From the NCBI GenBank assembly GCA_021780195.1, contig JAJXZE010000001.1, positions 1,603-65,602 of the forward strand: DNA of 64,000 nucleotides. The letters run 5' to 3'. Positions 1 to 58,512 of this stretch are shown one piece after another. Numbering within the stretch: the first letter of the stretch is position 1; each line of letters opens with the position of its first letter. The position numbers were made by a program, and so were the translations under genes. The stretch comes from a bacterium. GTDB taxonomy: Bacteria; Patescibacteriota; Minisyncoccia; UBA6257; 2-01-FULL-56-20. The notes beneath the pieces were generated by a model. The model was not told the origin of the DNA. It did no database searches and saw only the letters and a program-made list of their open reading frames with translations.

Positions 1-434
1 GTGTATTTGAGAACTTCGGTTACTTTGATGAGGAGTTTAATATGGCCGATGATTGGGAGATGTGGATACGCCTCGCGGCGCAAGGCGTATCGTTCGCCTC
101 AATCCATGAGCCCCTTTTTAAATATCATATTCATGGCACCAATATAACTAAAACCATAGCTACGGGAAAGATGATAAAAGACCTGGAGTATTTAGCGATA
201 AAGCACGAATCTCTTTATAGCAGATATCCTCGCGCCAGATCAAGAATGATGGCATATCTTGGGAAGCTTTATGCCGACGATGGAGAGCTGACGCGGGCGC
301 AAAGTATACTGAAGCAAGCAATAGTTCTGGATAGAGCCAACTGGAAAGCATATGTCACCCTCCTCATCTCGAGTCTTGGGATAAAGACATACCGTCGAGC
401 TGCGTCGGCGATAAAATTTTTCAGAGGTAGCTAA
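1..434 (+). CDS. glycosyltransferase family 2, C-terminal fragment (5' end lies upstream of window)
   Basis: Frame-3 translation from position 3 reads VFENFGYFDEEFNMADDWEMWIRL..., the typical GT2 C-terminal region; the 42..434 ORF continues this frame to its stop. Confidence 0.55.
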   Translation, partial: VFENFGYFDEEFNMADDWEMWIRLAAQGVSFASIHEPLFKYHIHGTNITKTIATGKMIKDLEYLAIKHESLYSRYPRARSRMMAYLGKLYADDGELTRAQSILKQAIVLDRANWKAYVTLLISSLGIKTYRRAASAIKFFRGS

Positions 435-435
435 A

Positions 436-1212
436 ATGGGGAGCATTAAGAAGGCGATAAGAATTTTGAGAGAAAGAGGCGTACGGGTCTTTTTTGATAA
501 GATTATTAATCGGCTACGATTAGCGTTCCGCCCTATCTATATAAAATTTTTTATCTCAGGCAGAGAGATGGGTATGATAAAAGAACTTAGTGAGTTTGAT
601 GCGAGAGACTGTGACGCCGTTTTCACTTTCATCACTAAAAAATATTTTGGGATATTTAGTGCCATGCAAATCAAGAATGAGTTTATAAAATTGCTCAAGA
701 GAATTGAACGCAAGCACCCAAAATACGTACTTGAGGTGGGAACGGCCAATGGCGGAGCCCTTTTCTGCTTCGCCAAACTTGCGTCAGATGATGCCGTGGT
801 GATCAGCATCGATTTGCCGGAGGGTAAATTTGGAGGAGGCTACGAGAAATGGCGCGCGCCATTCTTTGGAGCGTTTCGCAGAAACGGGCAGAAGATATTT
901 CTTCTAAGAGAGGATTCCCACGCACCCGCAACGTTAGAACGCGTGAAAGAAATTTTGGGAGGGCGGCAGCTCGACTTCCTCTTTATTGATGGCGATCATA
1001 CCTATAGTGGAGTGAAACAGGACTTTGACATGTACCGCCCATTGGTCAAAAAAGGAGGCGTGGTCGCTTTTCATGATATCGTGGATGGTTTTGAGGAGTA
1101 TGTTGGCGGCGTGCCTAGATTTTGGCGAGAGCTGAAGGTTGGTTGTGACTATGAAGAATTTGTTCAGGATTGGGAGCAGGGCGGCTATGGCATTGGCATT
1201 TTGTCAGTGTAG
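436..1212 (+). CDS. class I SAM-dependent methyltransferase (TylF/MycF-like O-methyltransferase fold)
   Basis: VLEVGTANGG ... FLFIDGDHTYSGVKQDF ... GGVVAFHDI motifs; sits inside a glycosyltransferase locus. Confidence 0.6.
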   Translation: MGSIKKAIRILRERGVRVFFDKIINRLRLAFRPIYIKFFISGREMGMIKELSEFDARDCDAVFTFITKKYFGIFSAMQIKNEFIKLLKRIERKHPKYVLEVGTANGGALFCFAKLASDDAVVISIDLPEGKFGGGYEKWRAPFFGAFRRNGQKIFLLREDSHAPATLERVKEILGGRQLDFLFIDGDHTYSGVKQDFDMYRPLVKKGGVVAFHDIVDGFEEYVGGVPRFWRELKVGCDYEEFVQDWEQGGYGIGILSV

Positions 1213-1282
1213 CGCGGATAAATGATGTGCCAAGAGCCGAGCCTCCGTTCCAATAGGCGTGGATTGGAGGTACTATTAAGAT

Positions 1283-2314
1283 ATGTCGGCTTCTCAGGAA
1301 GAGAAACATTTGCGAGAAAATAACGTGCAGGTGCCAAAAATTTCCGTCGTCATTCCTTCTTACAACGGGGAGGCATTCATAGGCAAGGCAATTCGCAGTG
1401 TTCTCAATCAGACCTTCCAGGATTTTGAGGTTCTCGTAGTAGATGATTGTTCGACGGATGGCACCCGGGACGAGGTACGGAGATTTGAGGCAATCGATAA
1501 AAGAGTGCGCCTATTTACCCTTAAAAAAAACTCCGGCGGCCCAGCTAGTCCGAGCAATCTTGGTATAGGGAAAAGCCGAGGAGAGTATGTATCATATCTT
1601 GATCAGGATGATATATATCTCCCAGACAGTCTCGAAAAAAGATGGCGCGTCTTGCAGGGAGCCAAGACCGACGTGCTGATCGCTAACATGTGGGTCGTGG
1701 ATTTGCGGAGCAATAAGTTTATCGATTACCTCAACTCAAACTTTTCCAGCTTTATTATTTCTAGAAAAATGTTTGATAAGGGTGAAATCGGGTTGCTGAG
1801 CGAAGAGGCATCCGGCATAGATGAATATGAATGGTCGCTGAGATATAGATTGAAAAATGGAGGAGAAAGAATTCGTTATTTTGAGGAACCCGCGGTGCTT
1901 TACGCTAGGCATCCAGGGCAGATGTCGGAAAGTCACTATTCAGAAAAATCAATCAAGGATTTTCTTAGAAGAGATTTCGTGGTTTTAAAATGGGCGGAAA
2001 TGGGCGGAAACGACTTTCGAGTCGATCTGGCTTGGATTTATTTTTGGATTGGTTACCGATATGGGCTTCTTGGAGAGTTTGATCACTCAAGACGATATTT
2101 AGAGAAATCGCTGGACAATGGAGCGTCTCTTGTTGCTCGGACATTTCTCCTCGTCGGCCTCGTAAGAAGCAGGCCTCTCTATGTCGCGGTCGACAAGGCG
2201 GCCAAATGGATAAAAAAAATATTTATAAAACGATGGAGGCTTAATAGTATGGTGAAGAAATATCCCGCATCATATCGAGACGCACTCGCCTTTTATGGAA
2301 AGATAACCTCCTAA
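1283..2314 (+). CDS. glycosyltransferase family 2 (copy 1 of tandem pair)
   Basis: KISVVIPSYNGEAFIGKAIRSVLNQTFQDFEVLVVDDCSTDGT signature (DxD-type GT-A); an alternative GTG start at 1331 would give a MPKISVV N-terminus identical to copy 2. Confidence 0.8.
   Translation: MSASQEEKHLRENNVQVPKISVVIPSYNGEAFIGKAIRSVLNQTFQDFEVLVVDDCSTDGTRDEVRRFEAIDKRVRLFTLKKNSGGPASPSNLGIGKSRGEYVSYLDQDDIYLPDSLEKRWRVLQGAKTDVLIANMWVVDLRSNKFIDYLNSNFSSFIISRKMFDKGEIGLLSEEASGIDEYEWSLRYRLKNGGERIRYFEEPAVLYARHPGQMSESHYSEKSIKDFLRRDFVVLKWAEMGGNDFRVDLAWIYFWIGYRYGLLGEFDHSRRYLEKSLDNGASLVARTFLLVGLVRSRPLYVAVDKAAKWIKKIFIKRWRLNSMVKKYPASYRDALAFYGKITS
1332..1485 (+). repeat. approx 152-bp near-identical direct repeat shared with 2318..2471 (one mismatch), covering the first ~50 codons of two adjacent GT2 genes
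   Basis: Direct nucleotide comparison of the two gene 5' ends: identical except ccag/ccaa, diverging after gaggtacggagatt. Confidence 0.85.
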
Positions 2315-2316
2315 AT

Positions 2317-3288
2317 ATGCCAAAAATTTCCGTCGTCATTCCTTCTTACAACGGGGAGGCATTCATAGGCAAGGCAATTCGCAGTGTTCTCAATCAGACC
2401 TTCCAAGATTTTGAGGTTCTCGTAGTAGATGATTGTTCGACGGATGGCACCCGGGACGAGGTACGGAGATTACAGAAGAAAGACGCTAGGATCAACTTAA
2501 TAGGATTAAACAAAAATACGGGTGGTCCAGCATCGCCGCGAACGTTAGGATGCAAGGCGGCGCGCGGAGAACTGATTGCATTTATCGATCAAGATGATAT
2601 TTTTTACCCACATTATTTGGAGGCGAAGTTTGATTTTTTTAGAAATCACCCAAATATAAATTTTCTGGCAAGCTGGGCTTGGACGTTTGATCCTGATTCA
2701 AAAAAAATCATCAATTGTGAATATGGCGGACCAGTTAACACCATGATTCGCGCAGAGATTTTAAAAACTATTAATTATTTCGATCCCAGAGAGACCGGTG
2801 TCGATGATTCGGGTATGTGGTACCGTTATCTGGTGCATTATGGCTCGCGTGCAAGTGCTTATGTGGAGTTGGCTCCGTTGACACTATATGCACGCTATGC
2901 TGGGCAAGGTTCGGACGTGGAGAGTAAGGACTTTAAAGAACTAGCAGAGAAGCTCAAGATGATTATTGGTGCATACTATGGTGAAGGAAACGGGGAAGTA
3001 TTCGCCTTTGTTTCTTCTCTCAAGTCGCGCATTGGCAATTTTTTATGCTTGTCGGGCGACGTTAAGCAAGGAAAGGGATATTTTAGGGAGTCCTTAAGAT
3101 TGCGATTCACATTTTTTGCATTTGGATTATTGTTAATGTCTACTTTTGCTCCACGGCATTATAGACGAACTGAGGCCCTCTTGAGAAAATTTCAAAGAAG
3201 CGTGGTGTGGCGCGCGAACGTTTTTATAAAATGGTTAAAGTATCGAAAAAGCTACACAGAAGCCCGGGCCATTTTATCTCAATACTGA
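2317..3288 (+). CDS. glycosyltransferase family 2 (copy 2 of tandem pair)
   Basis: N-terminal 50 aa identical to the preceding GT2; DDCSTDG motif; stop overlaps the next start (TGATGA). Confidence 0.8.
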   Translation: MPKISVVIPSYNGEAFIGKAIRSVLNQTFQDFEVLVVDDCSTDGTRDEVRRLQKKDARINLIGLNKNTGGPASPRTLGCKAARGELIAFIDQDDIFYPHYLEAKFDFFRNHPNINFLASWAWTFDPDSKKIINCEYGGPVNTMIRAEILKTINYFDPRETGVDDSGMWYRYLVHYGSRASAYVELAPLTLYARYAGQGSDVESKDFKELAEKLKMIIGAYYGEGNGEVFAFVSSLKSRIGNFLCLSGDVKQGKGYFRESLRLRFTFFAFGLLLMSTFAPRHYRRTEALLRKFQRSVVWRANVFIKWLKYRKSYTEARAILSQY

Positions 3289-4385
3289 TGAAAGTTTTAT
3301 TGGTTCATGGAACGAATTTGGTGTCGGGTGGAGAGGCGGTTTCCCTTGGGATTGCGAAGACGTTGGGGAAACATAACTTTGTTTTTTTTCTCCCAGGGAA
3401 GCCAGGGGACGAAAATCTCTTCCTGACATTCGGCGTCTATTATCCCTATCGCCGTGGTCTAGTTCGACTGATAAGGCGTCTGATTGAGGTGATGCGCAAA
3501 GAAAAACCTGATATTGTTCATGCACAAGGCTTACGAGCGGCGGCACTAGTAAAGGTGGCTTATTATCTCTCGGGGAAAAAAGGGAAATTTATCTATACCC
3601 TGCATGGAATTCATTTTATACGCAAGCAACTGCCGGCCCGAGTCGCATTTCTCCTTTTTGAGAAGGTTACCAATAAACTGGTTGACGCCCTAGTTTGTGT
3701 CGGGAGGGATGATTTTGAATTGGCGAAGACCCTGCATTTGGTCAGTAGTGAAAAGCTGTTCTTGATAAGGAATGGTATAAATTTGAGAGACGTAAAAAAC
3801 ACTCGTAGTGGGCATGTAGAGACGGGCTCTTGCAAGGAAGATCAAGTTGTCATCACCACGGTCTGCCGGCTCCACCATCAAAAAGATGTCGGGAGTCTTA
3901 TCGAGGCAGTTTCCATGCTTAGGGAAAATGGAGTAATGCTTTTGATAGTTGGTGATGGCCCAGAGCGGTCTCAGTTGGAGATGCTCAGTGCCAGTCTTTG
4001 CTTGGATGGCCGCATCAATTTTCTCGGGAATAGAAGTGACGTTGATCAAATTCTTTCCATAACAGACATTTTTGTATTGTCGACTCACTGGGAAGGCCTC
4101 CCTCTCGTTGTTCTAGAAGCCTGGGCACACAAAAAACCGGTTATAGCTTCCAAGGTACACGGGGTAAAGGACCTCATTAATGATGGAGATAATGGTCTGC
4201 TATTTGATGAGAGTGCCCCACGCGATTTATCAGAAAAAATAATATCGATTTTGAAAAATAGAGATCTAGGGGTGAGGCTTGGAGAGAATGGTTACCATCT
4301 CGTGAAAGCGCAATACGCATTAGAAATAATGGCAAAAAACTATGATGCGTTATATGCAAAAATATTGTGTTCTTCGGATAGGTAA
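3288..4385 (+). CDS. glycosyltransferase family 4 (GT-B fold)
   Basis: MKVLLVHGTNLVSGGE N-terminus and EGLPLVVLEAWAHKKPVIASKVHGVKDLINDGDNGLLF C-terminal GT4 motif; ATG at 3288 chosen rather than the upstream ORF-track extension. Confidence 0.8.
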   Translation: MKVLLVHGTNLVSGGEAVSLGIAKTLGKHNFVFFLPGKPGDENLFLTFGVYYPYRRGLVRLIRRLIEVMRKEKPDIVHAQGLRAAALVKVAYYLSGKKGKFIYTLHGIHFIRKQLPARVAFLLFEKVTNKLVDALVCVGRDDFELAKTLHLVSSEKLFLIRNGINLRDVKNTRSGHVETGSCKEDQVVITTVCRLHHQKDVGSLIEAVSMLRENGVMLLIVGDGPERSQLEMLSASLCLDGRINFLGNRSDVDQILSITDIFVLSTHWEGLPLVVLEAWAHKKPVIASKVHGVKDLINDGDNGLLFDESAPRDLSEKIISILKNRDLGVRLGENGYHLVKAQYALEIMAKNYDALYAKILCSSDR

Positions 4386-5485
4386 TGAAAATTCTTCAGG
4401 TCAATAAACTCTATTCTCCCTGGATCGGCGGGATTGAGACGGTGGCGCAGGATATCGCCGAACATTTTCACGGCAGGGATGGTGCGAGGGTGGTGAATCT
4501 TGTGTGCCAGCCGAGCGGTGCGCGAAAAATCGGGGGAGTGAACGGGGTGCCGACGTATCGCGCGGCGAGTTTTGGAATGGCGTTCGGCATGCCGCTCTCT
4601 CTCGATTTTTTCCGTTTGTTCAAAAAACTTTCCGCGGACGCCGATGTGATTATTCTACACCACCCGTTTCCGATCGCTTTCATCGCGTACCGCCTCTTCG
4701 GGAAGGGGAAAAGAGTGATCGTATGGTATCACTCCGATATCGTGAGGCAAAATATCGCGAAGGCACCGTTTATGCCATTCATCCGCGCCGTGCTTGCCGC
4801 CGCGGAACACATCCTCGTGTCGAATGAAGCCATCATTAAGCATTCCGCCGTCCTAAAAAAGTTTTCCGATAAATGCCGCGTCGTCCGTTTCGGTGTTGAC
4901 CCTGCGAGATTTCGGGAGACAGGCGCGATAGAAAAAGCGGAGGACGAAATAAGGAATGAGTATGGATCGCCGCTCATTCTCTCCGTGGGTCGCCTTGTCT
5001 ATTATAAGGGCTACTCTTATTTGATCGATGCGATAAAGGACGTTCCGGCGCACCTGCTGATCGTCGGGAGCGGGCCCTTACGTGCCGCCCTTAACGCTCA
5101 AATCAGGCGTAATGGCATGGGCGATAAGGTATTTATCGTGGGATCCGTCGACGACCTTGTCCCGTATTATCACGCATGCGACGTCTTTGCGTTGCCCTCG
5201 TGCGAACCTTCCGAGATGTTCGGCATCGTGCAGATTGAGGCCATGGCGTGCGGCAAGCCGGTCGTGAACACCGCACTTCCGACGGGCGTACCCGAAGTAA
5301 GCGTTGACGGGAGAACCGGAAAGACCGTCCCGCCGAAAGATGCCCCCGCACTTGCGGAAGCGCTACGGGAGATTTTATCCAATAAAGACGAGTATGACCG
5401 CTTTTCCGCGAATGCCACAAGGGAAGTTGCGGCGAGATTTACGAAGGAGAAATTTTTTGCCGAGATGGAGCACTATCTCTCCTAG
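4385..5485 (+). CDS. glycosyltransferase family 4
   Basis: MKILQVNKLYSPWIGGIE ... EPSEMFGIVQIEAMACGKPVVNT (EX7E-type GT4 motif). Confidence 0.8.
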   Translation: MKILQVNKLYSPWIGGIETVAQDIAEHFHGRDGARVVNLVCQPSGARKIGGVNGVPTYRAASFGMAFGMPLSLDFFRLFKKLSADADVIILHHPFPIAFIAYRLFGKGKRVIVWYHSDIVRQNIAKAPFMPFIRAVLAAAEHILVSNEAIIKHSAVLKKFSDKCRVVRFGVDPARFRETGAIEKAEDEIRNEYGSPLILSVGRLVYYKGYSYLIDAIKDVPAHLLIVGSGPLRAALNAQIRRNGMGDKVFIVGSVDDLVPYYHACDVFALPSCEPSEMFGIVQIEAMACGKPVVNTALPTGVPEVSVDGRTGKTVPPKDAPALAEALREILSNKDEYDRFSANATREVAARFTKEKFFAEMEHYLS

Positions 5486-17094: not shown

Positions 17095-17138
17095 GGTAGC
17101 ATAGAGAACGTTCCGGAGGCCGGAATACCGGCCATGCA

Positions 17139-17223
17139 GGAGGCGTCGCATAGTGGTCTAGTGCGCTCGCTTGGAAAGCGAGTATGTCGAAAGGCATCAC
17201 AGGTTCGAATCCTGTCGCCTCCG
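17139..17223 (+). tRNA. tRNA-Ser (anticodon GGA), class II with long variable arm; CCA not encoded
   Basis: Acceptor GGAGGCG/CGCCTCC, anticodon arm CTCGC-TTGGAAA-GCGAG, variable arm ~17 nt, T-arm ACAGG-TTCGAAT-CCTGT, discriminator G. Confidence 0.8.
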
Positions 17224-17227
17224 CGGA

Positions 17228-17380
17228 GAATGCCGAAAGGGCTTTGAAGAGCCAGAATAAAATCCCCCAGCGGGGATTTTTTCTTGTCCCTCGGCCCATT
17301 TGCCGAAAACAAACGAATGTTTTCGGACCGTGCCAAACGGGCCTGCGGGATCCTCTTCAAGGCCCTTTCGGCATTCTTTT
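17228..17380 (+). other. nested stem-loop element directly 3' of tRNA-Ser: 24-bp long-range stem (17228..17251 with 17353..17376) enclosing two hairpins, followed by a T-run
   Basis: gaatgccgaaagggctttgaagag pairs with ctcttcaaggccctttcggcattc (one G-U); the interior holds the intrinsic terminator 17262..17282 and a 9-bp hairpin ccgaaaaca/tgttttcgg. Confidence 0.5.
17262..17282 (+). terminator. rho-independent terminator after tRNA-Ser (ATCCCC-cagc-GGGGAT plus T6)
   Basis: aaaatcccccagcggggatttttt. Confidence 0.6.
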
Positions 17381-17674
17381 GGCGGGTGCGATGACTCGAA
17401 CCGGAGCGCCGCCCCGGGTAGGAGGGAGCCGCGTTCTTACGCGGCGGGTCGGGAACCGAGGGTTCCCGAAACGGGGGTCGGGGCGGCGCGCAAGATTCGA
17501 GGAGCGAGCGTAGCGAGCGACGGAATCCTGTCGATTTATATAAGGGGGTTTCTGGCACGTTTTCCACAAAAACATGCCTTTTCTTTTGTCCACTTTCGGC
17601 AATTTGCCCCTCATTATTTAATAATATACAATGGAGAGGTGGAAATATCACCCTTCCATTAAACATATTGATAT

Positions 17675-18250
17675 ATGGCCACTGACAACCTTATTGCCAA
17701 ATTATACGAATCCCCCAAGACAATCCTGACCATTAAGGACATTGCTTTGATTTGGGGAGAAACAAACACCGTCAATCTTCTCACGAAGATAAAATACTAC
17801 GCGAAGCAAGGATCGCTGATTCGACTGACTCGTGGCGTATTTGCCAAAAACAAAGAGTATGATCTGAAAGAATTAGCAGGAAGTATCTATACTCCTTCTT
17901 ATATCAGTTTTGAAACCGTGCTCCGTGAGACCGGCATTATTTTTCAACATCACGATGCGATTTTTGTAGCCGGTCCCTATCCGATGACCAAGAAAATCGA
18001 CGATCACACGATCGTCTTTCGCAAACTGAAAGACAGCGTTTTATACAACGGGCTCGGCGTAAAAAAAGAAAAGAGCTATAGCATCGCTACGCCGGAGCGA
18101 GCATTCCTCGACACCATATATCTATCCCCTAAGTTTTATTTCGATAACTTGCGATCCATCAATTGGGATCAATGTTTTGAACTGGCAAAAATATACGATA
18201 ACAAACAATTGATCAAGCGGATAACTAAATATAAAAAACATGCTGAATAA
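17675..18250 (+). CDS. AbiEi-like antitoxin / transcriptional regulator (type IV TA, abortive infection)
   Basis: 191-aa protein in the AT-rich patch, placed directly upstream of and overlapping an AbiEii-type nucleotidyltransferase gene; wHTH-like N-terminus. The call rests on context and length plus weak pattern similarity. Confidence 0.6.
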   Translation: MATDNLIAKLYESPKTILTIKDIALIWGETNTVNLLTKIKYYAKQGSLIRLTRGVFAKNKEYDLKELAGSIYTPSYISFETVLRETGIIFQHHDAIFVAGPYPMTKKIDDHTIVFRKLKDSVLYNGLGVKKEKSYSIATPERAFLDTIYLSPKFYFDNLRSINWDQCFELAKIYDNKQLIKRITKYKKHAE

Positions 18251-18953
18251 AGAAAAACACCAACTCGTTATGGGGCAGATTTTGAGAGATATTTATTCCG
18301 ATACCTCCATATCTTCCCTGATCGGATTCAAGGGCGGCACCTGTGCTTATTTTTTCTATGGCCTGACAAGATTTTCTATAGACCTCGACTTCGACCTGTT
18401 TTCCACTGATGAAGCTACGCAAAAGCTCGTGTACGAAAGAATCGGTGGTATGTTGGAAAAATACGGAGAGGTCAAAGATAATTACATAAAACGAAACACC
18501 ATATTCTTCCTGCTTTCTTATGGCGATGCCGACCACAATGTGAAAATTGAAGTGAACATGAGAATTCTTATGCCGGATATCAAGGAGCACTACGAAGTAA
18601 AAGAATATCTGGGCATTTCTATGCTTGCGGGCAAAAAAGATTATCTTTTTGCGAGTAAGCTGGCCGCATTGACCACAAGAAGCGAAACGGCAATGCGTGA
18701 TGTGTATGACGTTTGGTTTTTTGGCACAAATCACTGGGATATAAACGTTGATGTGATCAAGGCAAGAACTGGCAAGACTATCAAAGAATACATGGCTGAT
18801 TGCCTTCCGGTTGTTGAGGCAATCAAAGATAATGAAATTTTGAGAGGATTGGCTGAGCTTTTGCCGGACGAAAAAGCAAAGGCGTGGGTAAAAACTCACT
18901 TAAGAAAAGAGGTTATCTTTCTGCTCAAAAATTACCAATCCGTATTAAAATGA
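18240..18953 (+). CDS. AbiEii/AbiGii-family nucleotidyltransferase toxin (DUF1814)
   Basis: FKGGTCAYFFYG (the GGT motif of the DUF1814 NTase family) and later D/E-rich motifs; 11-nt overlap with the upstream AbiEi-like gene. Confidence 0.7.
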   Translation: MLNKEKHQLVMGQILRDIYSDTSISSLIGFKGGTCAYFFYGLTRFSIDLDFDLFSTDEATQKLVYERIGGMLEKYGEVKDNYIKRNTIFFLLSYGDADHNVKIEVNMRILMPDIKEHYEVKEYLGISMLAGKKDYLFASKLAALTTRSETAMRDVYDVWFFGTNHWDINVDVIKARTGKTIKEYMADCLPVVEAIKDNEILRGLAELLPDEKAKAWVKTHLRKEVIFLLKNYQSVLK

Positions 18954-21532
18954 ACGGCCTTGCCAAAACCGACGCACTGAAATTCTCGCTCGCCGATCTT
19001 TATGCCAAGCTCGGCACGTCTGAACAGGGCCTTACCGAGAAAGAAGCCGGAAGCCGCCTCGCATCCTCGGGGCCGAACGTTCTCAAGCGAAAAAGCGTGA
19101 ACGCTCTGGACATCCTCGGCCGCCAATTGAAAAGTTCGCTCATTTATCTTCTCATTGGGGCAAGCCTCTTGGCGTACAGTATCCATGATTTTCGGGATGG
19201 CACGATCATCCTCGTCATTCTCCTGATCAACACCTCTCTCGGTTTTTATCAGGAATATAAATCAGAAAAAATCGTCGAAAAACTCTCACGTTTTATCACG
19301 AGGCAGGTCAGGGTAAGGCGCAATGGGCAGATTTCATTGGTTGACGAATCGCAAGTCGTCGTAGGCGACATCCTCATCGTCCGCGAGGGCGACATCGCTT
19401 CAGCTGACATGCGGCTCATCGATACCGAGGACCTGCGGGTCAACGAGTCGCAGCTTACGGGCGAGTCGGCGCCGGTCGCAAAACAGGATTCGACAGGTGC
19501 GGGCGCGAAACCGGAAAACATGCTTTTCACCGGCAGTGTCGTTGAGAAGGGCGAAGGCGTGGGGATTATTTATGCGACAGGAAATGATACGGAGCTTGGC
19601 GTGATCGCAAAGCTTTCCACGGAGACGAAGAAGCAGACGCAATACGAAAAATCGCTTCAGTCATTCAGCTCGTTCCTCATAAAAATTGTCCTAATCGGCC
19701 TTGCCATCATCTTTATCGCCAAATTTTTCCTCGCGCACGGCTCAGGCACCACCGACCTTCTTCTCTTCGTCATCGCGCTCGCCGTGGGAACGGTGCCGGA
19801 GGTGTTGCCCGTGATCGCAACGGTGACGCTTTCGGCGGGGGCGCTCAAGCTTGCCAAACAGCACGTTGTGGTGCGACGCCTGTCCGCCATGGAAGATTTC
19901 GGGAATATCAATCTTCTTTGCACCGACAAGACGGGTACCATCACCGAGAATAAAATGGTGGTAAAGAAAGTTACGGCAACTGACGAGAAGCTTTTTCAGG
20001 TTTTTGCCTATGCGGGTATCACGCCGCTCAAGGGGCGCAAGAAACGGACGCAGAATTCATATGACGAGGCCTTTTTACAGTACGCGTCCGAAGAAATAAA
20101 GAAGGAGGCGGGACATTTCAGGATCCTTAAAGAATTGCCGTTCGATCCCGAAGACCGGAGGAGCCGGTTGGTCGTTGAAAATACGGAGCACAAAAGATGC
20201 TATCTGCTTTCGATCGGCGCGCCGGAAACCTTATTGGCGATAAGCGGCGCAGGACATAAGGCGGAGTATCTCCGCGACATCGCCAAAGAGGGCGGAGAGG
20301 GATTGCACCATCTTGCCATTGCCTATAAAGAGATTTCATATTCAGACAACTTCGACATTTTGAAGAACGAACATGATCTGGCATTTCTTGGCTATGCGAG
20401 CATGGAAGATCCGCTGCGCCCCTCCGCAAAAAAAACCATCGAGCGCGCAGAACGTCTCTGCATCACGATAAAGATCCTTACGGGAGACGGCCGCGAAGTC
20501 GCCGAATACGTCGGGAAACAGATCGGACTTTTGAAGGAGGGCTCTAAGGTCTACCTTGGAGACGAACTGGAAGCGATGACACAGGACGAGTTCAAGGCCG
20601 CGGTCCAGCGCTCGACCATTTTTGCAAGAGTTTCCCCGACCCAGAAGTTCAATATCATCAAAGCCCTCAAGGAGACGAATGTCGTCGGATATCAGGGCGA
20701 CGGCATCAATGACGCTCCCGCCCTGAAGCTTGCGGACGTGGCGATCGCCGTGAATTCCGCAACCGACATCGCGAAAGAGAATGCGGACATCGTGCTTTTA
20801 AACAAAAGCCTGGAGGTCATCATCAACGGCATCAGGTATGGCCGCTCGATTTTCGTAAATATCAATAAATATATCCGTTATACGATGAGTAATAATTTCG
20901 GAGCGTTCGTCGGGCTTTCGACGCTGTATCTGCTCTCCGTCAATCTGCCGATTCTTCCGGTGCAGGTACTGCTCAATAACCTGTTCGGCGACATCCCGCT
21001 CATCATGGTCTCGACCGACACCGTCGAAGACGACGAGGTGGTACAGCCGGAACGACACAACATGCGTGAACTCATGTTCATATCGCTCATTCTCGGCGTT
21101 CCGACCGCGCTCTTCGAGATACTTTACTTCGCCACCATCAGGGCCCAAACAAGCTCGGTTGCGCAAACCAGCCTCTATGTCTTCCTTACGTTCCAGGCGC
21201 TCATCATCTTCTATGCCATTCGCAATAAAAAACATTTTTGGAAGGCAAAAATGTCGTCCGCCGCACTCAACATCTCATTTTTCCTGGCGTTCGTTCTTTC
21301 TCTCGGCATTATCTTCATCCCGCAGTTCCAGGCATGGTTCTCATTCGTACCGATCTCCGCAACGGCGATCGGCACCATTATGATACTCATGTTGCTCTAC
21401 TTCCTTGCCGTTGATTATGTGAAGGTTTGGTATTATCAGGGGACTCGGCTCGGCGGATTATATACCGAATCGGCAACGGCGGGGACCGCGGCGATGGGTG
21501 CTCATTCTGAAAAGCGGGGCGATCAATTTTAA
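18950..21532 (+). CDS. cation-transporting P-type ATPase (MgtA/Ca2+-ATPase-like, P-type II/III)
   Basis: CTDKTGTITENKM phosphorylation motif, GDGINDAPALKLADV hinge motif, about 10 TM segments; start at the internal ATG that overlaps the AbiEii stop (ATGA). Confidence 0.85.
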   Translation: MNGLAKTDALKFSLADLYAKLGTSEQGLTEKEAGSRLASSGPNVLKRKSVNALDILGRQLKSSLIYLLIGASLLAYSIHDFRDGTIILVILLINTSLGFYQEYKSEKIVEKLSRFITRQVRVRRNGQISLVDESQVVVGDILIVREGDIASADMRLIDTEDLRVNESQLTGESAPVAKQDSTGAGAKPENMLFTGSVVEKGEGVGIIYATGNDTELGVIAKLSTETKKQTQYEKSLQSFSSFLIKIVLIGLAIIFIAKFFLAHGSGTTDLLLFVIALAVGTVPEVLPVIATVTLSAGALKLAKQHVVVRRLSAMEDFGNINLLCTDKTGTITENKMVVKKVTATDEKLFQVFAYAGITPLKGRKKRTQNSYDEAFLQYASEEIKKEAGHFRILKELPFDPEDRRSRLVVENTEHKRCYLLSIGAPETLLAISGAGHKAEYLRDIAKEGGEGLHHLAIAYKEISYSDNFDILKNEHDLAFLGYASMEDPLRPSAKKTIERAERLCITIKILTGDGREVAEYVGKQIGLLKEGSKVYLGDELEAMTQDEFKAAVQRSTIFARVSPTQKFNIIKALKETNVVGYQGDGINDAPALKLADVAIAVNSATDIAKENADIVLLNKSLEVIINGIRYGRSIFVNINKYIRYTMSNNFGAFVGLSTLYLLSVNLPILPVQVLLNNLFGDIPLIMVSTDTVEDDEVVQPERHNMRELMFISLILGVPTALFEILYFATIRAQTSSVAQTSLYVFLTFQALIIFYAIRNKKHFWKAKMSSAALNISFFLAFVLSLGIIFIPQFQAWFSFVPISATAIGTIMILMLLYFLAVDYVKVWYYQGTRLGGLYTESATAGTAAMGAHSEKRGDQF

Positions 21533-21582
21533 ATCGGCCCTTTGTCGCGCGGAGCCACGCGGCACTCCGTGAAATAAAAAAG

Positions 21583-21607
21583 ATCCTGCCGCAGGCGCAG
21601 GATTTTG
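21583..21607 (+). terminator. rho-independent terminator downstream of the P-type ATPase
   Basis: atcctgc-cgcaggc-gcaggat followed by tttt; a further 13-bp inverted repeat (21608..21620 / 21649..21661) and a 10-bp hairpin (21725..21755) follow in the convergent junction. Confidence 0.5.
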
Positions 21608-21772
21608 GGAAGGGGCTCCTCGTACTTGGGAGGGGTATCAAAGGGCCTAGGAGCCCCTTCCGAACGGAGCATTCATCCGACTCTCTGAGTCTATGATAGC
21701 AGGTGCTGGTAATTTGTCAAGAACGGCTGGCGGCCGTAAAAAAGCGCCGCCAGCCAACCCCGGGCTATACTG

Positions 21773-22333
21773 CTAACGGGAAGACCAAACGATCCTCCCC
21801 GTATAGCCCGTGGTACGCCTTACAACGCCATTCGCGTCCGCGTTGACGCGGACATTGTGTACCCCGCCTACGAAGCTCGCCGTGCCCTTGCACAGGTTGA
21901 GCCCAATCGCGAGATACTTCCACTTGCCTCCGCGACGATACAGTCGCCTGGCAGACCAGTCCACCGCGAGGTTCAGGAGCGCGTTGGCAAGTACGACCTT
22001 GCTCGCGCTCCTGTCTCCGACGAAACTGGCCCAGCCGGTTTCCGTACCGCGGTAACGACCGAGGAACTTACCGTCTGTTCCTTGGCGCGCTATGGGCGGA
22101 TGATCCAGTACCATGGCCGTCGTTACTCCGTCTAACGACGTCCCCGCAATCAGGTACCACCTCGAGGCCTTGAAGAGAAGATCGGTCTTGCCCGACTCCT
22201 CCCGCGGCCGAAGGTTCACGTACCTGTTTGTCTGATACTGGACTTGGGCAAGGGCATGCGGTGCGGACGAACACAAGCCCACCGCAAACAATATCCACGC
22301 TGTCGCGCGGACGCCTCCTGGTTTTATTCTCAT
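21773..22333 (-). CDS. hypothetical secreted protein (signal peptide, AxA cleavage site)
   Basis: MRIKPGGVRATAWILFAVGLCSSAPHALAQ signal peptide; no recognisable motif. Confidence 0.45.
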   Translation of the reverse strand: MRIKPGGVRATAWILFAVGLCSSAPHALAQVQYQTNRYVNLRPREESGKTDLLFKASRWYLIAGTSLDGVTTAMVLDHPPIARQGTDGKFLGRYRGTETGWASFVGDRSASKVVLANALLNLAVDWSARRLYRRGGKWKYLAIGLNLCKGTASFVGGVHNVRVNADANGVVRRTTGYTGRIVWSSR

Positions 22334-56331: not shown

Positions 56332-56553
56332 ATGAAAAAGACCTTCCGCCAATATCCGGAAACCATGCTGATCATCCTTGCGGTGGTATTCCTCGCCGCG
56401 ATCATCGGCGTTTTCAGCTGGGGAATCGGGGTGGTGGTCGTGCAGGTGAACCGCGTCGAAGGTGCGGCGCAGCCGACGGCGAACCATATTGATTTCAATC
56501 TGTCCGGAGCGAAGGCGCTCGATCTGCGGGGGCTTGTCAAAACCCAGCCGTAG
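56332..56553 (+). CDS. hypothetical small membrane protein
   Basis: 73 aa, single TM (MLIILAVVFLAAIIGVFSWGIGVVVV). Confidence 0.3.
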   Translation: MKKTFRQYPETMLIILAVVFLAAIIGVFSWGIGVVVVQVNRVEGAAQPTANHIDFNLSGAKALDLRGLVKTQP

Positions 56554-56576
56554 GCCTTATCATTGACCGTGTTCCC

Positions 56577-56651
56577 GCGTCCTTAGCTCAGTGGTAGAGC
56601 GCTACAATGACACTGTAGAGGCCGGAGGTCCGATCCCTCCAGGACGCACCA
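56577..56651 (+). tRNA. tRNA-Val (anticodon GAC), CCA encoded
   Basis: GCGTCCT TA GCTC-AGTGGTA-GAGC G CTACA-ATGACAC-TGTAG AGGCC GGAGG-TCCGATC-CCTCC AGGACGC A CCA. Confidence 0.85.
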
Positions 56652-56787
56652 CGGCGAAGGCGCGCTCCTCGGCGGACGCGGTTCGCGCGTGCTCGCGCGG
56701 CCGCTCGCTCTCGGCGTTGCCGACCTCCTCGTTTTTATCGTTCTCCGGGACGCCTCCGAGATGCCGCCGAGGAGCACGCCTTCGCCG
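56652..56787. repeat. 136-bp element bounded by 24-bp inverted repeats (23/24 complementary) between tRNA-Val and tRNA-Ile; either a MITE-like insertion or an RNA processing stem
   Basis: cggcgaaggcgcgctcctcggcgg (56652..56675) pairs with ccgccgaggagcacgccttcgccg (56764..56787). Confidence 0.5.
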
Positions 56788-56860
56788 TGGTGTTTCGCGC
56801 GAGGATTGGTCCCTCCTTGCGATTTGCGATGCAGTGGTGTAAAAAAGAATAGTATTTTAG

Positions 56861-56932
56861 GCGCATGTAGTTCAGTGGTAGAACGCGTTCCTGATAAGAA
56901 CGAGGTCGAAGGTTCGATTCCTTCCATGCGCA
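56861..56932 (+). tRNA. tRNA-Ile (anticodon GAT)
   Basis: GCGCATG TA GTTC-AGTGGTA-GAAC G CGTTC-CTGATAA-GAACG AGGTC GAAGG-TTCGATT-CCTTC CATGCGC A. Confidence 0.85.
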
Positions 56933-56947
56933 CATATAAATTTCGTG

Positions 56948-56993
56948 TTTGACGCGTTATCCGTGTTGATATAATATGAACACATGTTCATAT
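56948..56993 (+). promoter_or_regulatory. promoter (TTTGAC, 16 nt, TATAAT) plus 9-2-9 inverted repeat ATATGAACA-ca-TGTTCATAT overlapping the arsR start (candidate ArsR/SmtB 12-2-12-type operator)
   Basis: tttgacgcgttatccgtgttgatataatatgaacacatgttcatat; the palindrome arms match the TGAA..TTCA type seen in CzrA/SmtB operators. Confidence 0.5.
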
Positions 56994-57304
56994 ATAAGCG
57001 GTGCGTCTGCAGGGTGGAACCCCACGACAAGATCGACCTCGCCGAGTTCAGTGGAATCGCGGAGCAAATGAAGTTCCTCTCGACGCCGAGCCGGATCGCC
57101 ATCCTTTCGCTTCTCTATAAGGCACCGCACTGCGTCTGCGATCTTGAAACGCATACCGGTTTGTCGCAAACGCTCCTTTCCCATCATTTGAAGGATCTTG
57201 CGAAAGGGGGATTGGTGGCGAGCGCAAAAGAAAAAACATTTGTGGAATATCGATTGACTACGAAGGGCCGAAAACTGGTGCGGATGATAGGGCAAATCAA
57301 GTGA
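56984..57304 (+). CDS. arsR: ArsR/SmtB-family transcriptional regulator
   Basis: PSRIAILSLLYKAPHCVCDLETHTGLSQTLLSHHLKDLAKGGLV (wHTH with CVC metal-sensing motif). Confidence 0.75.
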   Translation: MFIYKRCVCRVEPHDKIDLAEFSGIAEQMKFLSTPSRIAILSLLYKAPHCVCDLETHTGLSQTLLSHHLKDLAKGGLVASAKEKTFVEYRLTTKGRKLVRMIGQIK

Positions 57305-58512
57305 AAATAGGACCCATGCCTTCCAAAAAGTCATTTTCGACCCTCATGAAAAGCGCTTTTTATATTGGCGTCATCGGGTATGGCGGCCCGGCGATCCTGG
57401 CGCAAATGAAGCGGATATTCGTCAACGAACATGGATATCTGTCGGAACGGGAATTTATGGACGGCCTGGGGCTCGCGCAGGTCCTCCCGGGCTCGCAGGG
57501 CACAAGTATGATGACCTATGTCGGATACAAGCTCTACCGTTTTTGGGGAGGCGTTGTTGTTCCTTTTGTCTTTATTGCCCCGTCCATCGCGCTGATCATT
57601 TTCCTTTCATGGGCGTACTTCAGCTTCGGCAATATTCATGCGGTGAAGTCCGTTTTTATGGGACTCGGCGCGGTCGTGGTTGCACTGCTTCTTGACGCTA
57701 CCTTCAAACTCGGAAAAACCGTCTTTAAGGATCTTGACCGAAACGATCTTAAGGGAGCGCTCATTGCCGCCGGTGCATTCATCGCCGTCTTCTTCTTCAA
57801 TATGAACGCGATTTATATTATTTTACTCTCCGCGCTTCTTGGTTTCGTTTTTTATTTCTCTACCAAAGAATTTGCATCGGAAAAAATGCCGTCCAGAGCC
57901 GCTTCCGGTAATCCCGTCGTGAGGCTGCGGTTCAAGAAGAAAGATTTTCTGCCGATCGGGCTTTTGCTGATAGCCATCTCGTCCGTTTTTTTCTTCCCTC
58001 TCTTCGAAAAGATATTCACCACGTTCTTTCAGGTCGGTGTTTTCACGTTCGGCGGCGGTTACACGGCAGTAGCTTTGATCCAGCGGCTCACGGTGGATGG
58101 TATGCACTGGATCACTCTTCCGCAATTTCGGGATGGCATCGCGCTCGGACAGATAACGCCGGGACCAGTGCTGGAAACCGCGACATTCATCGGGTATCAC
58201 GTTGCCGGGATCGCCGGCGCCCTTGTCGCAACCTCCGCTATTTTTTTGCCTTCCGTGCTCGCCATGCTCCTCGTGATTGATATGCATGAAAAGGTGAGGA
58301 ATCTGAAGCTCGTGAAGGTGCTGATCAAAGGTATCCTTTCCGGCTTTATCGGGTTGCTCGTCGCCGTCACGCTGCAATTTGCGACGAAATCACTCCTTGA
58401 TTGGCAGACCTGGGCGATCTTCCTTGCCGCGGTTGCGTTTATTTCCTATTTCAAAAAAGAGCCGATCTGGGCGATTGTGGGCGGCGTTGCGGTATCATTT
58501 TTCATATTCTGA
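57301..58512 (+). CDS. chrA: chromate efflux transporter ChrA
   Basis: Tandem CHR domains: GYGGPAILAQMKRIFVNEHGYLSEREFMDGLGLAQVLPGSQGTSMMTYVGY and TFGGGYTAVALIQRLTVDGMHWITLPQFRDGIALGQITPGPVLETATFIGY. Confidence 0.85.
   Translation: MKIGPMPSKKSFSTLMKSAFYIGVIGYGGPAILAQMKRIFVNEHGYLSEREFMDGLGLAQVLPGSQGTSMMTYVGYKLYRFWGGVVVPFVFIAPSIALIIFLSWAYFSFGNIHAVKSVFMGLGAVVVALLLDATFKLGKTVFKDLDRNDLKGALIAAGAFIAVFFFNMNAIYIILLSALLGFVFYFSTKEFASEKMPSRAASGNPVVRLRFKKKDFLPIGLLLIAISSVFFFPLFEKIFTTFFQVGVFTFGGGYTAVALIQRLTVDGMHWITLPQFRDGIALGQITPGPVLETATFIGYHVAGIAGALVATSAIFLPSVLAMLLVIDMHEKVRNLKLVKVLIKGILSGFIGLLVAVTLQFATKSLLDWQTWAIFLAAVAFISYFKKEPIWAIVGGVAVSFFIF

What the first reader, a model, noticed from the sequence alone, without database searches (positions are those of the whole stretch)
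17139..21661. Low-GC island next to tRNA-Ser(GGA): AbiEi/AbiEii abortive-infection pair translationally coupled to a P-type cation ATPase
Seen in sequence:
- GC content drops visibly between about 17650 and 21540 relative to both flanks.
- The patch begins just 3' of tRNA-Ser(GGA) and a structured element.
- Its three genes are chained by overlaps: AbiEi-like and AbiEii overlap by 11 nt, and the AbiEii stop overlaps the ATPase start as ATGA (18950..18953).
- AbiEii has the GGT NTase motif FKGGTCAYFFYG; the ATPase has DKTGT and GDGINDAP motifs.
- Terminator hairpins cluster at the right end (21583..21755).

Established knowledge: AbiE (AbiEi/AbiEii) is a type IV toxin-antitoxin / abortive-infection system, and tRNA genes are common integration sites for islands.

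Inference: this is a horizontally acquired defence islet. I am not aware of a P-type ATPase described as an operonic partner of AbiE. It could be a passenger, or an ion-flux effector or modulator of the abortive response. No integrase or direct-repeat att site was found.
Basis: partly seen in the sequence, partly recalled or inferred. Interest (0 to 1): 0.75.

Follow-up and report, generated by a model that had tools for sequence, protein, structure and literature searches.

The report
AbiE cassette inserted before resident ATPase
A small, widely travelling toxin-antitoxin/phage-defence gene pair (AbiE) has landed between a serine tRNA gene and a resident magnesium-pump-like gene in a Patescibacteria genome, so the tight gene overlap looks like an accident of insertion and not a new defence partnership.

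Summary
tRNA-Ser(GGA) lies at 17139-17224. AbiEi (17675-18250) and AbiEii (18240-18953) overlap by 11 nt. The AbiEii stop overlaps the start of an 860-aa P-type ATPase as ATGA (18950-18953). GC drops, but in two steps: 40% for AbiE, 52% for the ATPase, 58-64% for the flanks.

The foreign unit is a 1.35-kb AbiE cassette (17604-18953) running from its promoter -35 box to the stop codon. The same cassette, 76-84% identical in DNA and 38-40% GC whatever the host GC, sits in nine other Patescibacteria contexts. None of them has an ATPase.

The ATPase is MgtA-like and appears resident. Its closest homologues (55-69% identity) never have AbiE upstream. One sits 153 nt after tRNA-Ser(GGA), an "empty site". 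Another shares the LemA-M48-tRNA-Ser left flank, and a third shares the right flank. None of 140 ATPase loci carries a close AbiE homologue, and none of 94 immediately upstream ORFs matches an AbiEi or AbiEii model.

The ancestral start (M-x-K) is gone. The new ATG is built from the last AbiEii codon plus its TGA stop. The ATPase was therefore most likely captured into the abiE operon by insertion and trimming, not recruited as an effector. This is ordinary biology and of low interest.

The parts
17139..17224 (+). tRNA-Ser(GGA), left landmark of the variable site
   Evidence: ARAGORN and Rfam RF00005 at 59.7 bits. The same tRNA lies 153 nt upstream of the ATPase homologue in L082, and 4.7 kb upstream of it in L166.
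17202..17402 (.). 50-nt imperfect inverted repeat. One arm is the tRNA 3' half plus its 26-nt trailer (17202-17251). The other is a degenerate inverted copy (17353-17402). They enclose a bidirectional terminator hairpin at 17259-17280.
   Evidence: the repeat finder I1, 76% complementary. Local alignment to tRNA-Ser(GGA) scores 47, against 13-18 for the other seven tRNAs. Terminator scan.
17403..17603 (.). GC-rich (57%) structured spacer with host-like composition and unknown function; no family match
   Evidence: Fold z = -6.5 for 17225-17620. There is no Rfam hit better than E = 0.19. There is no DNA match in any related locus.
17604..17674 (+). 5' end of the AbiE cassette. Promoter: -35 TTGCCC at 17604-17609, 17-nt spacer, -10 TACAAT at 17627-17632. 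Putative AbiEi operator palindrome ATGGAGAGGTG-N7-CACCCTTCCAT at 17631-17659.
   Evidence: Promoter scan. The alignment of five cassettes shows conservation starting at the -35 box (TTGAC in the others). The palindrome is a perfect 11/11 in the consensus and 9/11 here. DNA homology to all nine other contexts starts at 17604-17621.
17675..18250 (+). abiEi, antitoxin/repressor, 191 aa
   Evidence: PADLOC PDLC02255 AbiEi 1.2e-55, residues 4-185 against a 186-position model. The NCBIfam TAA_AbiEi hit is weak (31 bits, cutoff 150). Pfam AbiEi models are not significant.
18240..18953 (+). abiEii, DUF1814 nucleotidyltransferase toxin, 237 aa, with all four catalytic motifs intact
   Evidence: Pfam PF08843 1.5e-14. 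PADLOC PDLC02324 7.5e-66. Motifs I-IV located, as defined in PMC3985639. More than 120 protein clusters at 81-95% identity in Patescibacteria.
18950..18953 (+). ATGA junction, where the abiEii stop (TGA) overlaps the ATPase start (ATG). This is the 3' limit of cassette homology.
   Evidence: Alignment A2: the closest cassettes end AAA TAA and the window ends AAA TGA, so the ATG is the last A of the Lys codon plus TG of the stop. Homology ends at 18946-18955 in all contexts.
18950..21532 (+). MgtA-like (type III) P-type ATPase, 860 aa, a resident gene now without its own upstream region or ancestral start codon
   Evidence: Pfam E1-E2_ATPase, Cation_ATPase_N/C and Hydrolase domains. NCBIfam IIIA gives 474 bits and IIIB 458 bits, both below their cutoffs. 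The best PDB match is MgtA 8uy7, 5.6e-109. The N-terminal alignment shows homologues start M-x-K where the window reads L-A-K. There is no rate acceleration.
21575..21664 (.). Terminator-like hairpins after the ATPase. 21583-21603 is flanked by an A-run and a T-run and so could act in both directions. A 16-bp stem lies at 21605-21664.
   Evidence: I9; fold z = -4.8.

Best explanation
A self-contained AbiE toxin-antitoxin/abortive-infection cassette of 1.35 kb was inserted between tRNA-Ser(GGA) and a resident MgtA-like P-type ATPase gene of a Patescibacteria genome. The cassette comprises its own promoter, an operator palindrome, abiEi and abiEii.

Shown:
- The cassette is a discrete, horizontally spread DNA unit found in many unrelated contexts.
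- The ATPase belongs to this chromosomal neighbourhood in relatives that lack AbiE.
- The junction lies exactly at the abiEii stop.
- The ATPase has lost the ancestral M-x-K start and now begins at an ATG formed by the last abiEii sense codon plus a TGA stop.

Inferred:
- Insertion, followed by the deletion typical of streamlined genomes, removed the ATPase's own promoter region.
- The ATPase is now transcribed from the AbiEi-repressed abiE promoter and translated by termination-reinitiation at ATGA. This would be an operon fusion by capture.
- The AbiE pair itself works as described for the family. AbiEi binds the promoter palindrome and neutralises AbiEii. Free AbiEii, a Mg-dependent DUF1814 nucleotidyltransferase, modifies tRNA 3' ends and arrests translation and growth.
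- The ATPase keeps its housekeeping cation-transport role and is not part of the defence mechanism.
For: Identity of the parts.

Cassette as a discrete mobile unit:
- blastn shows 76-84% nt identity over 17604/17621 to 18946/18955 in 28 loci representing nine other contexts, with no similarity outside those limits.
- Cassette GC is 38-40% in the six loci measured, where the rest of each locus is 32-51% GC; this window is 59%.
- The neighbours differ in every context: T4P genes, T4SS-pilin arrays, bAvd/UvrA, PPDK_N/RadC, glycosyltransferase/carbamoyltransferase, Asn synthase/Gly_rich, the S16-KH-TrmD operon, Y1 transposase/DsbA, and unknown proteins.
- In two other contexts the next co-directional gene starts only 7 nt (RadC) or 21 nt (prepilin peptidase) after the stop. 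A tight junction is therefore not specific to the ATPase.

ATPase as a resident gene:
- L082 has tRNA-Ser(GGA), 153 nt of spacer, then the ATPase at 69% identity.
- L166 has LemA-NUDIX-M48-DUF805-tRNA-Ser(GGA), then 4.7 kb, then the ATPase.
- L087 keeps the NqrB-like gene downstream.
- No close AbiE homologue (tblastn, 1e-5) lies in any of the 140 ATPase loci with at least 700 nt upstream. No AbiEi or AbiEii match appears among the 94 immediate upstream ORFs, whose families are heterogeneous.

Start replacement.

ATPase still under constraint: all invariant columns are retained, and its mean identity to its clade (66.6%) falls within the range of the others (62-70%).

Family mechanism: PMC3985639 and bioRxiv 10.64898/2026.01.19.700257.
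Against: - Co-transcription and translational coupling are not demonstrated. The AT-rich 3' half of abiEii could hide an internal promoter; one weak 9/12 match lies at 18453-18482.
- This genome's genes mostly lack Shine-Dalgarno sequences, and some look leaderless. The absence of an SD before the ATPase ATG is therefore uninformative.
- The ATPase is itself lower in GC than its host, here and in three relatives (L087, L165, L166), so it may be an older acquisition and not strictly 'native'.
- The insertion mechanism is unknown. No integrase, no target duplication and no shared mobility gene were found.
- Only 10 of more than 120 close cassette clusters were inspected for context.
Confidence: 0.78

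Rival explanations
1. Functional three-gene system: the P-type ATPase is a genuine operonic partner of AbiE, for example a Mg2+/cation flux effector or a modulator of the Mg-dependent AbiEii nucleotidyltransferase during abortive infection.
For: - A 4-nt ATGA overlap with no intergenic space.
- The ATPase is intact and not fast-evolving despite losing its own start and upstream region.
- AbiEii catalysis needs a divalent metal (PMC3985639).
- No paper linking AbiEii and P-type ATPases was found, so it would be new.
Against: - The adjacency is unique to this genome. It is absent from all 9 other cassette contexts and from all 140 ATPase loci with upstream flank at tblastn 1e-5. No AbiEi or AbiEii model hit occurs among the 94 upstream ORFs.
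- The two parts differ in composition: 40% against 52% GC, GC3 47% against 65%.
- The cassette makes equally tight junctions with unrelated genes, RadC and prepilin peptidase.
- The ATPase is a common stand-alone Patescibacteria gene with thousands of homologues.
Confidence: 0.04
2. One composite island: AbiE and the ATPase arrived together as a single tRNA-associated genomic island, with the ATPase as passenger cargo.
For: - Both are below the host GC.
- They lie next to a tRNA.
- The region downstream of tRNA-Ser(GGA) is variable in relatives: L166 carries MFS/MarR/ABC/isochorismatase genes there.
- ATPase homologues are lower in GC than their hosts in three other genomes (L087, L165, L166), and some lie near tRNAs, such as tRNA-Gln in L165.
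Against: - The composition is two-step.
- Cassette homology stops exactly at the abiEii stop in all nine other contexts.
- Orthologous ATPases sit in the same LemA-M48-tRNA-Ser or NqrB-like neighbourhood without AbiE.
- There is no integrase or att repeat.
Confidence: 0.08
3. The ATPase was silenced by the insertion and is a young pseudogene-in-waiting. The ATGA overlap would then be a coincidence and no protein would be made.
For: - The ancestral start codon and upstream region are lost.
- There is no SD and no convincing nearby promoter.
Against: - The 860-codon ORF is intact, with every invariant residue of the family.
- Divergence from relatives is no greater than among them.
- The cassette is 84% nt identical at best to its nearest sampled relative, so the insertion need not be very recent.
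- An in-frame ATG is present exactly at the junction.
Confidence: 0.08

Closest known systems
AbiE (AbiEi/AbiEii) of Streptococcus agalactiae and Lactococcus lactis. This was described as a type IV TA/abortive-infection system (Dy et al. 2014, PMC3985639) and was recently proposed to be type VII (bioRxiv 10.64898/2026.01.19.700257).
   Same: - A bicistronic antitoxin-then-toxin pair with overlapping genes.
- A ~190-aa AbiEi and a DUF1814 NTase toxin carrying motifs I-IV.
- An 11-bp palindrome in the promoter region, consistent with AbiEi autorepression.
   Different: - A distant subfamily: the Pfam AbiEi models do not hit, and the NCBIfam AbiEi hit is far below its cutoff.
- The palindrome spacer is N7, against N27.
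- The gene overlap is 11 nt, against 4 nt.
- It has spread as a near-identical cassette within Patescibacteria.
- Here it is followed without a gap by an unrelated gene.
- No phage-defence or toxicity data exist for this clade.
MenAT systems of Mycobacterium tuberculosis (MenT DUF1814 toxins)
   Same: The same NTase superfamily. The likely mode of action is nucleotide addition to tRNA 3'-CCA ends, blocking aminoacylation.
   Different: No significant direct sequence match to MenT structures was found in the PDB search. The only hits are the DUF1814 structures 4o8s and 4ok0 at about 1e-6. Target tRNA and nucleotide specificity are unknown here.
MgtA, the P3B-type Mg2+-importing P-type ATPase (PDB 8uy7, 9byb)
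   Same: It is the best structural-database relative, at 5.6e-109 over residues 17-825. The window protein has a PEVLP TM4 motif similar to MgtA's PEMLP (the MgtA motif is recalled from my own knowledge and was not checked here). All catalytic P-type motifs are present. JGI annotates close homologues as Mg2+-importing ATPase.
   Different: It scores below the NCBIfam equivalog cutoffs for both IIIB-Mg (458 against 611) and IIIA-H+ (474 against 616). It therefore belongs to a separate Patescibacteria type-III clade whose transported ion is unproven.
tRNA-associated genomic islands
   Same: It sits next to a tRNA gene, is compositionally deviant, is absent from the homologous site of relatives, and a tRNA 3'-end fragment lies nearby.
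   Different: There is no integrase and no direct att repeats. The tRNA fragment is inverted and lies outside the cassette. The unit is only 1.35 kb, and its other copies are not at tRNAs.

Membership tests
AbiE toxin-antitoxin / abortive infection system | Toxin is a DUF1814/AbiEii nucleotidyltransferase | tested here: met
   Pfam PF08843 at 55 bits (cutoff 22.5), E 1.5e-14. PADLOC PDLC02324 7.5e-66 over residues 3-234.
AbiE toxin-antitoxin / abortive infection system | Catalytic motifs: I hG[GS], II (R)xxxDhD, III KLxAaxxR, IV +DxxD (PMC3985639) | tested here: met
   KGG31-33, RFSIDLD44-50, KLAALTTR140-147 (Leu at the 'aromatic' position) and RDVYD153-157.
AbiE toxin-antitoxin / abortive infection system | Cognate AbiEi (COG5340-type) antitoxin encoded immediately upstream in a bicistronic, overlapping arrangement | tested here: met
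   PADLOC AbiEi PDLC02255 1.2e-55, full length. The 11-nt overlap is conserved in homologous cassettes. Caveat: the Pfam AbiEi models are not significant, and NCBIfam gives 31 bits against a cutoff of 150.
AbiE toxin-antitoxin / abortive infection system | Promoter with inverted repeats bound by AbiEi (negative autoregulation) | tested here: inconclusive
   A conserved 11-bp palindrome with an N7 spacer lies between the -10 box and the abiEi start in five aligned cassettes. Binding was not tested.
AbiE toxin-antitoxin / abortive infection system | Toxicity neutralised by the antitoxin; protection against phage by abortive infection | not testable with these tools
   This needs expression and phage-challenge experiments.
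MgtA / P3B Mg2+-transporting P-type ATPase | P-type catalytic core (DKTGT, TGES, TGD, GDGxND) and 10-TM type II/III architecture | tested here: met
   Motifs located. Pfam N-terminal, E1-E2, Hydrolase and C-terminal domains found.
MgtA / P3B Mg2+-transporting P-type ATPase | Scores above the equivalog threshold of TIGR01524 (IIIB-Mg) | tested here: not met
   458.5 bits against a cutoff of 610.75. IIIA-H+ scores slightly higher, at 473.9 bits against a cutoff of 615.5. The best PDB relative is nevertheless MgtA. I file it as 'MgtA-like type III', not as MgtA.
tRNA-targeted integrative genomic island | Integrase gene and flanking direct repeats (att) derived from the tRNA 3' end | tested here: not met
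   The called genes around the locus include no integrase. The only tRNA-derived repeat is inverted and lies upstream of the cassette. The junction-to-junction match is at chance level.
tRNA-targeted integrative genomic island | Compositional deviation and absence from the homologous site in relatives | tested here: met
   40.2% against 59% GC. L082 and L166 lack the cassette at the tRNA-Ser(GGA)/ATPase locus.
Hypothetical AbiE-ATPase three-gene defence system | Recurrent adjacency of AbiEii and the ATPase in independent genomes | tested here: not met
   Absent from all 9 other cassette contexts. No close AbiE homologue (tblastn, 1e-5) in any of the 140 ATPase loci. No AbiEi or AbiEii model hit among the 94 upstream ORFs.

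The most novel reading that the evidence does not exclude
The ATPase has been functionally co-opted in this lineage. Placed under the AbiEi-repressed promoter and translationally coupled to the toxin gene, a Mg2+ (or other cation) pump would rise and fall with AbiEii. It would thereby tune the metal-dependent nucleotidyltransferase or the ionic state of the cell during abortive infection. This would be a lineage-specific three-component AbiE variant.
Probability: 0.04. Interest if true: 0.6.

Novelty: new member of a known kind. Interest (0 to 1): 0.15.

Why it matters
For defence-system discovery it matters little. The proposed new AbiE partner does not hold up, and the AbiE pair is already recognised by PADLOC and annotated in many Patescibacteria MAGs.

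Two smaller points may interest specialists.

First, one AbiE cassette, bounded exactly by its promoter and its stop codon, circulates at 76-84% nucleotide identity through very different Patescibacteria genomes. It has no recognisable mobility gene, and it usually sits co-directionally inside host operons.

Second, this locus is a clean example of how such an insertion in a streamlined genome can strip a resident gene of its promoter and start codon and re-wire it to a toxin-antitoxin promoter through an ATGA overlap. It also shows that tight gene overlap alone is weak evidence of a functional partnership.

Tried and rejected
- Rfam at gathering threshold (whole window) and at permissive E-values (17100-17700 and 21500-21800) found no family for the structured spacers.
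- I looked for a second tRNA or a tmRNA on the minus strand at 17380-17480. There is none; the sequence is a degenerate inverted copy of the tRNA-Ser 3' half.
- I looked for target-site duplications or att repeats around the cassette. The best match was at chance level.
It was useful only as a background set.
- The viral-contig scan with AbiEii found no phage-borne relative.
The look-up showed type IV pilus genes and no ATPase.
- PDB sequence searches gave only the DUF1814 structures 4o8s and 4ok0 for AbiEii, and nothing for AbiEi.
- I checked for Shine-Dalgarno sequences as evidence for or against coupling. This is uninformative, because genes of this genome generally lack an SD.
- Literature searches found no AbiE-P-type ATPase link.

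Full report
**1. What is in the sequence**

ARAGORN and Rfam both place tRNA-Ser(GGA) at 17139-17224. Three co-directional ORFs follow:
- 17675-18250, 191 aa
- 18240-18953, 237 aa
- an ORF whose first ATG is at 18950 and which ends at 21532, 860 aa

The first two overlap by 11 nt. The stop of the second overlaps the ATG of the third as ATGA.

GC falls in two steps:

| Region | GC | GC3 |
|---|---|---|
| 17604-18953 | 40.2% | 46-47% |
| ATPase gene | 52.1% | 65.5% |
| Flanking genes | 58-64% | 80-87% |

The first region is the lowest 1350-bp window of the whole 64 kb, with its minimum at 17601. Tetranucleotide distance peaks at the same place.

**2. Identity of the genes**

- The 237-aa protein hits Pfam AbiEii (PF08843, 1.5e-14) and a PADLOC AbiEii sub-model over its full length (7.5e-66).
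- It carries all four motifs that Dy et al. showed to be needed for toxicity: KGG, RxxxDLD, KLAALTTR and RDVYD.
- The 191-aa protein matches a PADLOC AbiEi sub-model end to end (1.2e-55). It is too divergent for the Pfam AbiEi models and for the NCBIfam cutoff.
- The 860-aa protein is a complete P-type ATPase with TGES, PEVLP, DKTGT, TGD and GDGIND.
- NCBIfam places the ATPase between IIIA-H+ (474 bits) and IIIB-Mg (458 bits), below both cutoffs. Its best solved relative is MgtA (8uy7, 5.6e-109), ahead of the Ca2+ and H+ pumps. I call it MgtA-like with the transported ion unproven.

Named hits for both proteins are Patescibacteria (Paceibacterota, Kaiserbacteria, Uhrbacteria and others), which indicates the host phylum.

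**3. The AbiE pair is a discrete, travelling cassette**

- AbiEii has more than 120 protein clusters at 81-95% identity. The ATPase's best relative is only 69% identical.
- I fetched contigs for ten AbiEii clusters. They gave nine genomic contexts other than the window's: type IV pilus genes; T4SS-pilin arrays; bAvd/UvrA; PPDK_N/RadC; glycosyltransferase/carbamoyltransferase; Asn synthase/Gly-rich protein; inside the S16-KH-TrmD operon; next to an IS200/605 Y1 transposase and DsbA; and among unknown proteins.
- blastn of window 17100-19300 against all these loci gives 76-84% nucleotide identity. The match always begins at 17604-17621 and ends at 18946-18955, with nothing beyond.
- The 5' limit is the promoter -35 box: TTGAC in the relatives and TTGCCC here, then a 17-nt spacer and TACAAT.
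- A conserved 11-bp palindrome follows, ATGGAAAGGTG-N7-CACCTTTCCAT. It is 9/11 in the window. It is the obvious candidate for the AbiEi operator, by analogy with the S. agalactiae system.
- The 3' limit is the abiEii stop codon.
- Cassette GC is 38-40% in the six loci measured, where the rest of each locus ranges from 32% to 51% GC; the window itself is 59%.
- No integrase, shared mobility gene or flanking repeat was found. No relative was found on viral contigs.

**4. The ATPase belongs to the neighbourhood, not to the cassette**

- In L082 (ATPase 69% identical) the same tRNA-Ser(GGA) lies 153 nt upstream of the ATPase start. This is effectively an empty site.
- In L166 (69%) the order is LemA-NUDIX-M48 peptidase-DUF805-tRNA-Ser(GGA), then 4.7 kb of MFS/MarR/ABC/isochorismatase genes, then the ATPase. 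The window's left flank is LemA-M48-tRNA-Ser.
- In L087 (65%) the NqrB-like gene of the window's right flank lies downstream of the ATPase.
- 140 loci encode ATPase homologues with at least 700 nt of upstream sequence. None contains a tblastn match to the window's AbiEi or AbiEii at 1e-5, so close homologues are excluded.
- 94 of those loci have a co-directional ORF ending within 400 nt of the ATPase start. Those ORFs belong to 104 different Pfam families, none seen more than three times, and none hits a PADLOC AbiEi or AbiEii model.
- None of the cassette contexts has an ATPase.

I note that the ATPase is somewhat lower in GC than its host, here and in three relatives (L087, L165, L166). It may be an older acquisition, or it may simply be a compositionally atypical family.

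**5. The junction**

- Nearly all homologues begin M-x-K, where K is an invariant column. The window reads M-N-G-L-A-K, with Leu (CTT) where the ancestral Met would be.
- The closest cassettes end ...TTA AAA TAA. The window ends ...TTA AAA TGA, so the ATG is the last A of the Lys codon plus the TG of the stop.
- The ATPase has therefore lost its own upstream region and start codon, and it uses a start created at the cassette's edge.
- It remains intact. It retains every invariant residue of a 26-sequence alignment, and it is no more divergent from its clade (mean 66.6%) than the other members are from each other (62-70%). This argues that it is still expressed.
- The simplest reading is co-transcription from the abiE promoter and termination-reinitiation at ATGA. 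This is inferred, not shown.
- A weak internal promoter-like match exists at 18453-18482. Genes in this genome generally lack Shine-Dalgarno sequences, so sequence alone cannot settle the mode of expression.
- The cassette also abuts RadC (7 nt) and a prepilin peptidase (21 nt) in other genomes. Tight junctions are therefore a habit of this cassette in compact genomes and not a sign of partnership with the ATPase.

**6. How it most likely works**

The AbiE pair should act as described for the family.
- AbiEi represses its own promoter and neutralises AbiEii. The S. agalactiae system was described as type IV and has recently been reported to act through antitoxin-induced toxin autophosphorylation.
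- Free AbiEii adds nucleotides to tRNA 3' ends and halts translation, which can abort phage infection.
- The ATPase most likely continues as a housekeeping cation pump whose expression has been re-wired.

| Reading | Estimated probability |
|---|---|
| ATPase is a real AbiE effector or modulator | ~4% |
| The two arrived together as one island | ~8% |
| ATPase is silenced | ~8% |

**7. The structured element and the right end**

- The spacer at 17225-17603 is strongly structured (z = -6.5). Much of that comes from a 50-nt inverted repeat, formed by the tRNA 3' half plus its trailer and a degenerate inverted copy at 17353-17402. The two arms enclose a bidirectional terminator.
- The spacer has host-like GC, no Rfam match and no homologue in the related loci. 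I read it as a scar of earlier recombination at this tRNA, not as part of the cassette.
- After the ATPase there are terminator-like hairpins at 21583-21603 and 21605-21664.

**8. Verdict**

A horizontally acquired AbiE islet at a tRNA-adjacent variable site is real. A composite AbiE-ATPase island or system is not. The pair is a member of a known family and the operon fusion is probably incidental, so interest is low.

Noticed in passing
window 17202-17402: There is a 50-nt imperfect inverted repeat. One arm is the 3' half of tRNA-Ser(GGA) plus its 26-nt trailer. The other is a degenerate inverted copy with a 2-nt deletion in the T-arm. Together with GC-rich hairpins extending to about 17540, it makes a very stable structure (z = -6.5) with no Rfam match. 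It may be a scar of an old rearrangement at this tRNA, or an unknown RNA.
   Followed up: partly
loci L162-L164, L168-L192 (cassette = window 17604-18953): One AbiE cassette, from promoter to stop codon (about 1.34 kb, 38-40% GC), occurs at 76-84% nt identity in nine other Patescibacteria contexts. It is usually co-directional with its neighbours, and in L190 it sits inside the S16-KH-TrmD operon. No shared mobility gene was found. L191 has an IS200/605 Y1 transposase 284 nt upstream. How the cassette moves is unexplained.
   Followed up: partly
window 21529-21720, minus strand: A near-consensus promoter-like site (TTGACA-16-TATCAT, 11/12, with a TG extension) lies at 21720-21693. It points towards a minus-strand terminator at 21603-21583. 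This could make a small RNA of about 100 nt, or a 47-aa ORF (21672-21529), convergent with the ATPase 3' end. There is no Rfam match.
   Followed up: partly
window 1-4400: A second low-GC stretch (about 44%) encodes a run of methyltransferase and GT2/GT4 glycosyltransferase genes. It is probably a variable surface-polysaccharide cluster.
   Followed up: partly
window 56500-58500: Another low-GC patch lies directly after tRNA-Val(GAC) and tRNA-Ile(GAT). It encodes an ArsR-family regulator and a chromate transporter (ChrA), and may be a second tRNA-adjacent islet.
   Followed up: partly
window, starts of GroEL 13923, LemA 15624, HtpX 16192, ArsR 56984 and others: Most genes show no Shine-Dalgarno sequence. 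Some have a TATAAT box only 8-20 nt before the ATG, so they look leaderless or short-leadered. This limits any inference about translation initiation from sequence.
   Followed up: no
L042 (Mesorhizobium) and L087: A homologue of the window's 513-aa NqrB/RnfD-like FAD-binding protein (52-57% identity) lies 5-7 kb from a P-type ATPase homologue. This holds in a Patescibacteria contig and also in a Mesorhizobium genome. The recurring linkage was not examined.
   Followed up: no
L165, L166, L087 versus the window ATPase: ATPases of this clade are 4-9 GC points below the rest of their locus in three other genomes (L087, L165, L166), and sometimes lie near tRNAs (tRNA-Gln in L165). The ATPase family may itself move horizontally among Patescibacteria.
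   Followed up: partly
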